This document shows positions 44,801 to 47,800 of a stretch of 64,000 nt of DNA, piece by piece. Every line of letters starts with the position of its first letter. Within the stretch, counting starts at the first letter, position 1. The stretch is from Perna viridis (Eukaryota), in assembly GCA_037379345.1 (NCBI GenBank), contig CM074513.1, positions 18,972,001 to 19,036,000 of the forward strand, written 5' to 3'. The position numbers were made by a program.

Positions 44801-47800
44801 GGAGGGATTGATAGATGGAAGACTGAGAATGTTACTGTCCCCCAGAGTCTATACCTTACCCATGGTGAGGGCTATTGGTAAGACCATGGTTCAAGGGAAG
44901 AACTATGGTCCACAGATTACTGTTAGGAGGCTTTCAACGAGGTAAATATTTATTTTGTATGTTACTTAGTTGAAGTACTTGAAATGTTTTATTGTTTCTT
45001 GAGTTGAAAATGTTGGTTGGGTTTTAATGGGCCAATGAGACTACTCAAATTGCCTCAAGTAGTTTACTAAGAAATTGAGATGAATATTAAAAATAACTAC
45101 TGTTCATACATGTAGATTTAAATGCAAAATGTACCTATGGAATTAACAGGTGAATTGTCTGAAAGAAAAGTTTAAATCGTCATCTCAATAATACAGGTAA
45201 CGAGGAATTTCATCAGGCAATTGTCGTTGTAATAAAAAGACCAAATCTGTCTCCTGAATATTATCATTTTATGTGCTGTAAAATTTGAGGCCTTAATTCA
45301 TATAGTGAACCATTCATGTGCCTTAATCATTAAAATTTCTAATTATATAAATGTGCAATATACTGTATGTATGGTTTTATGTAAATTACAACTTATACAA
45401 ATGTAGTCTTAAACTTTTGTTGAACTTATATTATAGGGGAAAGAAATGCAGACCCGTGTATACCCAGATTGGGCAGCAAGTTGTCAAACTACGTCCAGAA
45501 GATCTGAGGTTACCAGCCAGGGCATGGAAGGTGAAGCTAATTGGAGAAGGAGCTGATGATGCAGGGGGAGTCTTTGATGATACAATTACAGAAATGTGTC
45601 AGGTCAGTTTTGATAAGACTTAAAGCCTACTGCACAATGTTTTCGTCATTTACCTGATGTTTAATTTGCATTTTACTACTAATATTAATGTTTTTTTTTT
45701 CAAGTGTACTATTGCCATGGTAATTTGAAATAGTGGATAATTTAGAGGAAATGATAAGCCTGAAACAGTAGACAGAGGTGTTTACCTATAGAGATTCTTC
45801 ATAGTTTCTACACACACACAGTGCTTAATTGAGGATCTTACCAATTTCTCCATTAAATACAGCCAAAGATATGAATTATCATGAAGTATCATAAACAGGT
45901 CTGAGTAGACATTATGAACATTAGTATTCAAGTATACATGTAACACTTGTATGTATATATGGTTAACAATATCTTTCTTTTATCAGGAGTTAGAGACAGG
46001 GGTAGTTCCATACCTAATTCCTACACCCAACTGTCTGAATGAATCTGGAAACAATAGAGACAGGTAAGTAGATTTTTTAACCCCTCAAAGTTACTGTAGT
46101 AAGAAGTCCCTTAATCATGATATTGTTCAGGCATTCCGCAACAAACATTTTTTAAATAGAATACTTTACTTGAATCTATTTTGGTATTCATAGACAGTCA
46201 CTGCTGAGGAATGATTATCATAGTAATTTATATAGAAACATATTTGTTAGAAAAAGGGTTAAATGTTTCTTTTAATTTTCTGTATCAATACATATTAATT
46301 TTTTTCATTCAGTGTAAGACCACAAAAATATTAAATTTCAGATTTTTACTGAATCCATCATTGACTTCAGAGGAGGACCTGTCCCTGTTTAAGTTCATTC
46401 ATGGGTGTTCTTTTTCAAATGAAAAGCTTTTTATCTTATAATACTTAGACCCTGATACAAAATGATTCGACCAATTACCTTGTCTTGTTTGTTTGTTGGG
46501 GTTTAACGTCCGAGCAGCAATATTTCAGCTATATTCAGACGAATTTTTTTAACTTGCATCAAAATATTTACTTTTAGATTTTTACTGAATCCATCATTGA
46601 CTTCAGAGGAGGACCTGTCCCTGTTTAAGTTCATTCATGGGTGTTCTTCTTCAATGAAAAGCTTTTTATCTTATAATACTTAGACCCTGATACAAAATGA
46701 TTCGACCAATTACCTTGTCTTTAACTTGCATCAAAATATTTACTTTTAGATTTTTACTGAATCCATCATTGACTTCAGAGGAGGACCTGTCATAGAGCCT
46801 GATACAAAATGATTCGACCGATTACCTTGTCTTTAACTTGCATCAAAATATTTACTTTTAGATTTTTACTGAATCTATCATTGACTTCAGAGGAGGATCT
46901 GTCCATGTTTAAGTTCATGGGTGTTCTCTTTGGTGTTGCAATTAGAACTAAGAAGCCTTTAGATTTACATTTAGCTCCTAGTGTATGGAAGCTGTTGGTA
47001 GGGATCCCTCTCAGGATAGAGGACCTTGAAGAGGTAAGATTAGTTACATGTACATGTATTTATGGGTTGGGGTGTTGGTTTTGGAGATGCATGTCAACTA
47101 TATTTTAGGAGGTAGAGATGAGCTGCTTGTCATTACTATTTTAGTCTTCAATATTAGAGAAGTTACCTTTTTGCCTTCTTGATTTCATTTCTGGATATGT
47201 TTGTTTTTGTAATGAGAGTTTTAAATTAATCAGAAGACTAGCCTTTTAAAATTTGTATTGAAAGTGGTATCAGTTCATTTCAAATTTTCATATACCACAA
47301 ACAAAATTTGTTGATACCCACAAATGCACATACTGCACATGTTTACGTTTTGTAGGTTGACCATATATATATACAAAGTCTCAGAGGTATTATAGACATT
47401 CAAGAAAATGGTGTGAATGAAACCAACTTCCATGAATACATTCCACTGGACTCATTTGAAGGCCAGAGTTTAGCAGGGCAGCTTGTTCCTGTTATCCCAG
47501 GAGGGGGTACCATGCAGCTGAATTTCCATAACAGGAGGGAATATGTTGAAGCTGTGTTTAATTATAGACTTAATGAAATGAATCAGCAGGTAAATTAAGT
47601 GCTCTGAAAGGGTACTTGTATACCCCTTGCTTGAAATGTGGGAGATATGTTGTGGTCATGCTGTCTTTCCATTTGTCCTTCCCAGTTCTAATCCACAACT
47701 GAAGAGAATTTTCATTCTGTGATTCCATTGTGCACCTCCTATTTAGCTATCTGAATGACTTTTTGGGTTTTTATATGGTTCCTAGGGAGGGGAGTAGGGG

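What the first reader, a model, noticed from the sequence alone, without database searches (positions are those of the whole stretch)
46342..47033. Four tandem copies of a HECT-exon acceptor; only the most distal gives an intact ligase
Seen: the 3' splice site plus exon start occurs at 46342, 46578, 46750 and 46862. Copies 1 and 2 carry a 4-bp TTCA duplication and reach stops; copy 3 hits TAG after ..EEDLS; none has a strong donor of its own. Copies 2-4 have near-identical polypyrimidine/AG context. Inference: the spliceosome must skip three decoy acceptors, presumably by exon definition. Use of a decoy would give a premature-stop, HECT-less transcript likely degraded by NMD. This is a natural test of 3' splice-site choice and a possible hypomorphic allele.
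Basis: partly seen in the sequence, partly recalled or inferred. Interest (0 to 1): 0.7.

Follow-up and report, generated by a model that had tools for sequence, protein, structure and literature searches.

The report
Tandem decoy splice acceptors before HECT exon
A 172-base stretch covering the end of an intron and the start of a ubiquitin-ligase exon has been copied in tandem, leaving three dead-end copies of the splice acceptor upstream of the real one; this is a real but familiar kind of local duplication, and its effect on splicing cannot be read from DNA alone.

Summary
The 42-nt exon start occurs four times, at 46342, 46578, 46750 and 46862, with 0, 0, 0 and 2 mismatches; no shuffle gave any match. 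Copies 2-4 are identical from -30 to +14 around the AG.

The structure is one 172-nt tandem array of about 3.5 units. Unit 1 is unit 2 plus a 64-nt insertion holding a dispersed 57-nt element. Unit 3 is unit 2 minus 60 nt.

Only the acceptor at 46862 keeps the frame open into the rest of a HERC1-like HECT domain, which is intact to its catalytic-Cys exon. Decoys 1, 2 and 3 reach stops after 33, 35 and 15 codons. No GT inside the array matches more than 5 of 9 donor consensus positions.

Copy 1 is a poor acceptor. Copies 2 and 3 carry the same core signals as the real site.

Decoy use, NMD and hypomorphy cannot be tested here.

This is a new member of a known kind: the 3' mirror of the F7 IVS7 minisatellite and of the classical duplicated-site constructs. 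Interest is modest.

The parts
45987..46063 (+). Upstream coding exon (77 nt) ending in a split codon (AG|), followed by donor GT at 46064
   Evidence: Sequence; the donor matches 9 of 9 consensus positions; the frame is continuous with the exon start.
46325..46341 (+). Acceptor context of decoy 1 (diverged: 3 of 17 differences from copies 2-4; weak pyrimidine tract; AG 21 nt upstream)
46342..46415 (+). Decoy 1 exon fragment (about 70 nt of exon start plus the 4-nt TTCA insertion); the frame stops at 46442-46444 after 33 codons
46416..46486 (+). Spacer of unit 1 (U+V, about 71 nt); no other copy in the window outside the array
46487..46550 (+). 64-nt insertion found only in unit 1. It holds a dispersed ~57-nt element (46486-46542) also found at 294-348 (98%) and 17247-17303 (91%)
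46548..46577 (+). Acceptor context of decoy 2 (30 nt identical to copies 3 and 4; TTAAC at -26; TAG acceptor)
46578..46650 (+). Decoy 2 exon fragment (with the TTCA insertion); stop after 35 codons
46651..46721 (+). Spacer of unit 2 (U+V)
46722..46749 (+). Acceptor context of decoy 3
46750..46791 (+). Decoy 3 exon fragment (42 nt only; this unit lacks 60 nt); TAG stop after 15 codons
46792..46833 (+). Spacer of unit 3 (V only; 2 differences from the V segments of units 1 and 2)
46834..46861 (+). Acceptor context of the productive site
46862..47033 (+). Genuine HECT exon (172 nt), covering HECT profile positions 34-82; donor GT at 47034
   Evidence: Pfam HECT E=1.2e-8; PDB TOM1 HECT E=1.9e-6; donor matches 7 of 9.
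47356..50303 (+). Remaining HECT exons, lying inside open frames 47356-47598, 48040-48177, 48999-49244 and 50115-50303. The last carries the catalytic-Cys motif and the stop codon
   Evidence: The Pfam HECT profile is covered in order: 86-158, 158-203, 204-260, 266-302.

Best explanation
What it is. A short tandem array with a 172-nt unit and about 3.5 units (46325-46931) lies in an intron of a HERC1-like E3 ligase gene and runs into its exon. The unit spans the last ~28 nt of the intron (branch-site-like TTAAC, pyrimidine tract, AG), the first ~70 nt of a HECT-domain exon, and ~71 nt of spacer.

How it arose (inferred). The array was built in several steps:
1. A first duplication made a decoy.
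2. The decoy picked up a 4-nt frameshifting insertion.
3. Unequal crossing-over or gene conversion between decoy and real units made mosaic units, with the real-type acceptor and the decoy-type exon fragment.
4. One unit lost 60 nt, and one gained a 64-nt insertion holding a dispersed element.

Consequence. There are three extra acceptors upstream of the real one, and two of them have identical core signals.

How it most likely works (inferred, not shown). Productive mRNA comes from splicing donor 46063 to acceptor 46862. This is the acceptor nearest the shared downstream donor and nearest the exon sequence that only the real copy has. Acceptors 46578 and 46750 are probably used in some transcripts, giving premature-stop mRNAs that NMD removes. 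Acceptor 46342 is probably used little. The several later mutational steps suggest the array has been tolerated for some time, which argues that enough productive splicing remains.
For: Shown:
- Four copies, far beyond chance.
- Unit lengths are 236, 172 and 112 nt. Unit 1 equals unit 2 plus 63-64 nt, one mismatch and one extra A. Unit 3 equals unit 2 minus 60 nt with 3 mismatches.
- The inserted stretch holds an element with two other copies in the window.
- Mosaic pattern: copy 1 against copy 2 has 3 of 17 differences just upstream of the AG and 0 of 71 downstream (Fisher p=0.006). The acceptor contexts of copies 2-4 are identical, yet the exon fragments of copies 1-3 share states that differ from copy 4 at +15, +37 and +44.
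- The gene is otherwise intact: the HECT profile is covered in order by five exons through the catalytic-Cys exon. SPRY, WD40 and RCC1-like exons lie upstream on the same strand.
- Stops in all decoy frames and no usable donor inside the array.
- Copy 1 has a weak acceptor context.
- Short intronic tandem arrays are common in this window. Besides this one, three arrays have periods of 32, 73 and 68 nt; two smaller repeats (about 20 and 46 nt) and larger local duplications also occur. The mutational process that makes such arrays is evidently active here.

Inferred: the order of events, the preference for the distal site, and NMD of decoy products.
Against: - No RNA evidence of any kind is available, so acceptor use is unknown.
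- Classical constructs with tandemly duplicated acceptors gave use of the proximal copy in one group's hands and the opposite in another's (passage in PMC1557585). Prior knowledge therefore does not favour the distal site. If proximity to the upstream donor rules, copy 2 would win and this allele would be close to null.
- The array is not a whole number of units. The 190 nt upstream of copy 1 show no significant likeness to the spacer (54 of 300 and 39 of 300 shuffles score as well), so the first event was not a simple tandem duplication of native sequence.
- The real exon differs from the three decoys at three positions, two of which change the residue (Pro to Leu, Leu to Met). I could not tell which lineage changed, because no named orthologue was available.
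- The copy number rests on one assembly.
Confidence: 0.6

Rival explanations
1. Near-null or strongly hypomorphic haplotype. Decoys 2 and/or 3 have the same core signals as the real site, are transcribed first and lie closer to the upstream donor. They capture most splicing, so this copy of the gene yields mostly premature-stop mRNA. The allele survives because it is heterozygous, rare or recent.
For: - Copies 2-4 are identical from -30 to +14.
- Decoys keep 42-70 nt of true exon sequence next to the AG.
- The resulting exons of 284 and 456 nt are not unusually long for this gene.
- One set of classical duplicated-acceptor constructs used only the proximal copy (passage in PMC1557585).
- The real exon carries two residue changes relative to the decoys.
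Against: - The array shows at least five later mutational events plus 3.6% divergence between the last two units (4 of 111). That is hard to reconcile with a strongly deleterious allele.
- All downstream HECT exons are open and match the profile in order.
Confidence: 0.2
2. Assembly artefact. The extra copies were created by the assembler or by polishing, and the real genome has one acceptor.
For: Only one assembly was seen. Short tandem repeats are error-prone regions. No reads could be consulted.
Against: - The units are not exact copies. They differ by a 64-nt insertion holding a dispersed element, a 60-nt deletion, a 4-nt insertion shared by two units, and point differences.
- The window has no N.
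- Artefactual duplications are usually exact or of haplotype size (general knowledge).
Confidence: 0.1
3. Regulated unproductive splicing. The decoys are kept because switching between decoy and real acceptors, coupled to NMD, tunes the ligase dose.
For: Premature stops in every decoy frame, no internal donors, and competent signals at decoys 2 and 3. The array has persisted through several events.
Against: - The units look young (0-3.6% divergence) and behave like other neutral intronic arrays in the window.
- There is no evidence of conservation in other species and no RNA data.
- Known poison exons are usually conserved (general knowledge).
Confidence: 0.07

Closest known systems
Human F7 intron 7 37-bp minisatellite spanning the exon 7 donor (Borensztajn et al. 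2006, PMC1557585; abstract and passages read)
   Same: A tandem repeat whose unit spans an exon-intron boundary, so that several splice sites identical in sequence compete for one partner. In F7 only the site attached to the real exon is used.
   Different: - F7 repeats the 5' splice site; here the 3' splice site is repeated, together with a branch-site-like motif and the pyrimidine tract.
- The F7 units are 37 bp, intronic after the first, and polymorphic in number. Here the unit is 172 nt, includes 70 nt of coding sequence and has indels.
- Site use was measured in F7 and is unknown here.
Classical constructs with tandemly duplicated donor or acceptor sites in globin genes (cited as refs 40-42 in PMC1557585, passage read). 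The names Lang & Spritz, Kuhne et al., and Reed & Maniatis 1986 are recalled, not read.
   Same: Duplicated complete acceptors competing for one donor; the question is whether the proximal or distal copy is used.
   Different: Those are engineered two-copy constructs in mammalian cells. This is a natural four-acceptor array in a non-human animal genome.
Intragenic tandem duplication that duplicates splice signals (Hellsten et al. 2011, PMC3265369, passages read; BRCA1 exon 10 partial duplication, PMC11839443, passages read)
   Same: A short segmental duplication inside a gene makes extra splice sites. The outcome depends on which copies the spliceosome picks, and a reduced yield may be tolerated.
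   Different: - In Hellsten et al. the duplication of an AGGT site creates a new intron and leaves the protein unchanged.
- Here no new donor is made, and the extra acceptors can only give premature stops.
Tandem alternative splice sites such as NAGNAG (catalogue preprint 10.1101/2020.09.11.292722; search listing only)
   Same: Closely spaced alternative acceptors for one exon.
   Different: Those sites lie a few nucleotides apart and share one branch point and tract. Here the sites are 112-236 nt apart, and each has its own copy of the signals.

Membership tests
HECT-domain E3 ubiquitin ligase, HERC1-type architecture | HECT domain detectable and complete, with the C-terminal catalytic-Cys region | tested here: met
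   Pfam HECT was matched exon by exon, in order: profile 34-82, 86-158, 158-203, 204-260 and 266-302 of 306. The last exon reads ...TAQTCFF... and ends in a stop. Profile positions 1-33 were not matched by the two upstream exons at E<=1.
HECT-domain E3 ubiquitin ligase, HERC1-type architecture | SPRY, WD40 and RCC1-like domains upstream of HECT in one gene (architecture recalled as typical of HERC1) | tested here: met
   SPRY 6.3e-14 (12388-12690), WD40 7e-8 (34367-34627), RCC1 3e-20 and 1.4e-18 (42732-43001, 43658-43930), all on the + strand. That they form one transcript is inferred. The name HERC1 rests on recall of the architecture; no named orthologue was retrieved.
Tandem array spanning a splice junction that creates pseudo splice sites (F7 IVS7 type) | The repeat unit contains the exon-intron boundary | tested here: met
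   The 172-nt unit holds 28-30 nt of intron end plus about 70 nt of exon start.
Tandem array spanning a splice junction that creates pseudo splice sites (F7 IVS7 type) | Pseudo-sites identical in sequence to the authentic site | tested here: met
   Copies 2 and 3 are identical to copy 4 from -30 to +14. Copy 1 is not (3 of 17 differences).
Tandem array spanning a splice junction that creates pseudo splice sites (F7 IVS7 type) | Only the authentic site is used physiologically; the pseudo-sites are silent but functional | not testable with these tools
   No transcript data for this organism is reachable.
Tandem array spanning a splice junction that creates pseudo splice sites (F7 IVS7 type) | Copy number is polymorphic (VNTR) | not testable with these tools
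   Only one sequence of the locus is available.
Unproductive splicing coupled to NMD (poison acceptor or exon) | The alternative site introduces a premature stop upstream of at least one exon junction | tested here: met
   Stops come after 33, 35 and 15 codons, all 238 nt or more before donor 47034, with four HECT exons downstream.
Unproductive splicing coupled to NMD (poison acceptor or exon) | The alternative site is actually used, and its product rises when NMD is blocked | not testable with these tools
   This needs RNA-seq with and without NMD inhibition.
Tandem alternative splice sites (NAGNAG-like) | Acceptors a few nucleotides apart sharing one branch point and tract | tested here: not met
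   Spacing is 236, 172 and 112 nt, and each copy has its own TTAAC and tract.

The most novel reading that the evidence does not exclude
The array is a long-tolerated natural set of fully competent decoy 3' splice sites. Either they are silenced purely by position, with the spliceosome taking the acceptor nearest the downstream donor (a 3' mirror of the oriented scanning shown for F7 donors), or they are used as an NMD-coupled valve on ligase dose. The oldest decoy may have been selectively disabled at its acceptor: copy 1 against copy 2 has 3 of 17 changes in the tract and, upstream of those 17 nt, lost the TTAAC motif and gained AGs, against 0 of 71 changes in the adjoining exon fragment.
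Probability: 0.15. Interest if true: 0.6.

Novelty: new member of a known kind. Interest (0 to 1): 0.3.

Why it matters
If the array is real and common in the species, it is a ready-made natural experiment. Three acceptors with identical branch site, tract, AG and first 14-42 exon bases differ only in their distance to the flanking donors and in the downstream exon sequence. Junction counts would then answer directly the old, still conflicting question of whether the proximal or the distal copy of a duplicated acceptor is chosen, and in a non-model animal.

For genome annotation it is a practical trap. A gene model that picks any decoy truncates a ligase that lies on more than 50 kb of the window before its catalytic domain.

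Beyond that it is an ordinary product of a genome in which short intronic tandem duplications are frequent.

Tried and rejected
1. A simple tandem duplication of native intron plus exon. The region upstream of copy 1 should then resemble the spacer, but local alignment scored no better than shuffles (54 of 300 and 39 of 300 shuffles reached the score). Rejected as the whole story.
2. The spacer (U+V) as part of the same mobile element as the 57-nt insert. The flanks of the other two element copies are not significantly like U+V (90 of 500 and 366 of 500 shuffles reached the score). Rejected.
3. Decoys hidden in RNA hairpins. Only 5 weak inverted pairs were found, the longest 23 nt at 78%. No support.
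4. The 57-nt element as a structured RNA. Folding z-scores were 0.02, 0.31 and -0.12, and the window has no Rfam or tRNA hit. Rejected.
5. An in-frame rescue. A GT after 39 nt of each decoy fragment would give an in-frame 13-residue insertion, but it matches only 4 of 9 donor positions. Unlikely.
6. Polarising the three differences between real exon and decoys. PDB searches with short pieces gave no hit or one hit that does not cover the site. This stays open.
7. A search for full-length orthologues using a raw reading frame plus the 'region' option was rejected by the tool because of stop codons. I did not pursue it.
8. Literature. Phrase searches for duplicated 3' splice sites found the F7, Hellsten and BRCA1 papers and no natural acceptor array. 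The prime sign in "3' splice site" may defeat phrase matching, so this is weak evidence of absence.

Full report
**The locus.** The window is AT-rich (GC 0.28-0.36 in 2-kb steps) and has no N. On the + strand it carries a long multi-exon gene. Open frames scanned one by one against Pfam give:
- SPRY (12388-12690, 6.3e-14),
- WD40 (34367-34627, 7e-8),
- RCC1-like repeats (42732-43001, 3e-20; 43658-43930, 1.4e-18),
- a HECT domain whose profile is covered in order by five exons: 46863-47033 (positions 34-82), 47356-47598 (86-158), 48040-48177 (158-203), 48999-49244 (204-260) and 50115-50303 (266-302).

The last of these exons carries the catalytic-Cys motif and the stop codon. From recall, this architecture is that of HERC1. 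No named orthologue was retrieved, so the name is a label and not a tested orthology. A ubiquitin-conjugating-enzyme exon lies on the minus strand at 61808-62146.

I do not take the contig for human. GC is about 32%, the SPRY-to-HECT part of the gene fits in about 40 kb, and the best protein hit to the exon is 77% identical. All searches of the gene were made exon by exon.

**The observation.** It is correct.
- The 42-nt exon start occurs at 46342, 46578 and 46750 without mismatch and at 46862 with two. That is 4 matches at up to 3 mismatches in the window on both strands, and none of 100 shuffles gave any.
- The 17 nt before the AG are identical at copies 2-4 and differ at 3 positions at copy 1. 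That search had 5 matches in all, one of them unrelated at 32138, with 2.36 expected by chance over the whole window. What makes the copy-1 match meaningful is that it directly abuts the exon fragment.
- Copies 2 and 3 are identical from -30 to +41. Copies 3 and 4 are identical from -41 to +13.
- No GT between 46342 and 46861 matches more than 5 of 9 donor consensus positions. The real donors match 9 of 9 (46064) and 7 of 9 (47034).

**Anatomy.** Measured from acceptor to acceptor, the units are 236, 172 and 112 nt.
- Unit 1 aligns to unit 2 end to end, apart from one mismatch, one extra A and a block of 63-64 nt.
- Unit 3 aligns to unit 2 apart from a 60-nt gap and three mismatches.

This is therefore one 172-nt array of about 3.5 units (46325-46931), not four separate events of different size. 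Each unit holds the last 28-30 nt of the intron, about 70 nt of exon and about 71 nt of spacer.

The extra block in unit 1 holds a ~57-nt element that also occurs at 294-348 (98%) and 17247-17303 (91%), in different flanks. The spacer has no other copy in the window.

**History (inferred).** The variants fall into a mosaic.
- The exon fragments of copies 1-3 share C, C and C where the real exon has T, T and A (offsets +15, +37, +44). The spacers of units 1 and 2 share two states that unit 3's spacer lacks.
- The acceptor contexts group the other way: copies 2, 3 and 4 are identical and copy 1 is the odd one.
- Between copies 1 and 2 there are 3 of 17 differences just upstream of the AG and 0 of 71 just downstream (Fisher p=0.006).

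The simplest reading has three stages. An older decoy unit arose first; its divergence from the real unit is 4 of 111 for the last pair. The middle units then arose by unequal crossing-over or conversion between the decoy and the real unit, with the exchange falling in the identical stretch at the acceptor. Finally came the 60-nt loss and the 64-nt insertion.

The first event was not a plain tandem duplication of native sequence. The array is not a whole number of units, and the sequence upstream of copy 1 does not resemble the spacer.

Short tandem arrays are frequent in the introns of this window: periods 32, 73 and 68 nt at 2596-3110, 40037-40252 and 49669-49876, two smaller repeats near 37944-38008 (about 20 nt) and 49914-50023 (46 nt), and larger local duplications. 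This one differs only in having caught a splice junction.

**Splicing signals.**
- Copies 2-4 have the same yUnAy-type motif (TTAAC) at -26, a modest pyrimidine tract (0.56 from -20 to -5) and TAG|A. The two neighbouring real acceptors have richer tracts (0.75 and 0.69).
- Any scoring scheme that reads -30 to +14 must give copies 2, 3 and 4 the same score.
- Copy 1 is weaker: its tract is 0.38, there are AGs 21 and about 30 nt upstream, and no yUnAy motif lies between them and the site.
- No long complementarity that could hide a decoy was found.

**How it most likely works.** All four acceptors would pair with the same downstream donor, giving exons of 692, 456, 284 and 172 nt. This gene appears to have an exon near 1 kb: the open frame 17318-18310 overlaps an AG acceptor at 17340/17341. 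Exon definition as such therefore does not pick out the last acceptor, least of all against copy 3.

What does distinguish the real site is that it is closest to the donor at 47034 and closest to the about 100 nt of exon that only it adjoins. My best estimate is as follows:
- Productive mRNA uses 46862.
- Copies 2 and 3 are used in a fraction of transcripts.
- Those transcripts carry stops 238-350 nt before the next junction, with four more exons behind, and are removed by NMD.

The evolutionary argument for tolerance is that at least five further mutational events accumulated on the array. This is inference. The passage read in PMC1557585 reports that engineered duplicated acceptors gave proximal-copy use in one laboratory and the opposite in another, so prior knowledge does not settle it. 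A largely unproductive haplotype remains a serious rival.

**Comparison with what is known.**
- The nearest natural case I found is the human F7 intron 7 minisatellite. Its first 37-bp unit spans the exon 7 donor, so that five to nine identical donors follow one another, and only the first is used (PMC1557585; abstract, passages). The present array is its mirror image at a 3' splice site, with a longer unit that carries the branch-site motif and tract as well.
- Intragenic duplications that copy splice signals are also known from the origin of an ATP2A1 intron (PMC3265369, passages) and from a BRCA1 exon 10 partial duplication (PMC11839443, passages).
- It is not a NAGNAG-type tandem site, because the spacing is 112-236 nt.
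- My phrase searches turned up no natural tandem array of complete acceptors. The prime sign in "3' splice site" probably weakens such searches, so I claim only that I found none.

**What stayed unchecked.**
- No transcript, read or population data and no eukaryotic genome collection were available.
- The seven protein hits are unnamed and could come from any animal, people included. I did not fetch or use them, so the direction of the Pro/Leu and Leu/Met differences between the real exon and the decoys is open. That Pro is the usual residue at this HECT position is my recollection only.
- Supplementary files were not needed.

**Verdict.** The duplication is real in the sequence and well beyond chance. 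The mechanistic reading (skipping by exon definition, NMD, hypomorphy) is reasonable in part but untested, and the exon-definition argument is insufficient. This is a new member of a known kind and of modest interest.

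Noticed in passing
window 294-348, 17247-17303, 46486-46542 (+ strand): A ~57-nt dispersed element occurs three times (91-98% alike), always in the same orientation as the gene. Each copy lies 35-69 nt upstream of an AG acceptor: about 417/418, 17340/17341 and decoy 46577/46578. The flanks are unrelated, folding shows no structure signal, and there is no Rfam hit. Three of three near acceptors is odd for a random insertion, but n is small.
   Followed up: partly
window 46876, 46898, 46905 (real exon) against the same offsets in 46342-, 46578- and 46750-: The real exon differs from all three decoys at three positions. 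Two change the residue: Pro to Leu in ...LLN(P/L)S..., and Leu to Met before FKF. The decoys agree with each other. Which lineage changed could not be decided without a named orthologue.
   Followed up: partly
window 2596-3110, 40037-40252, 49669-49876; also 9114-9577 with 10162-10625, and 15208-15613 with 15607-16016: There are several other young tandem arrays (periods 32, 73 and 68 nt; 85-99% matches) and local duplications (99% and 80%) in introns of the same gene. None was seen to overlap a coding frame.
   Followed up: partly
window 23028-23381 and 48200-48475 (+ strand): Two open frames share a peptide of the type ...TNRLLEQGYVAT..KSSLQKFY..HHE.., and the adjoining hydrophobic frames are also alike (27291-27576 and 48510-48780). 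This is probably a dispersed repeat inside introns. The one copy tested (48200-48472) had no Pfam match.
   Followed up: no
window 57820-62165 (- strand): A neighbouring gene on the opposite strand has a ubiquitin-conjugating-enzyme exon (Pfam UQ_con 1.8e-10 at 61808-62146) and an acidic Asp-rich tail frame at 57947-58222. From recall this is CDC34/UBE2R-like.
   Followed up: partly
window 46789 and the same offset in the other decoys (46381, 46617): A GT 39 nt into each decoy fragment would, if used as a donor to 46862, give an in-frame 13-residue repeat instead of a stop. It matches only 4 of 9 donor consensus positions.
   Followed up: yes
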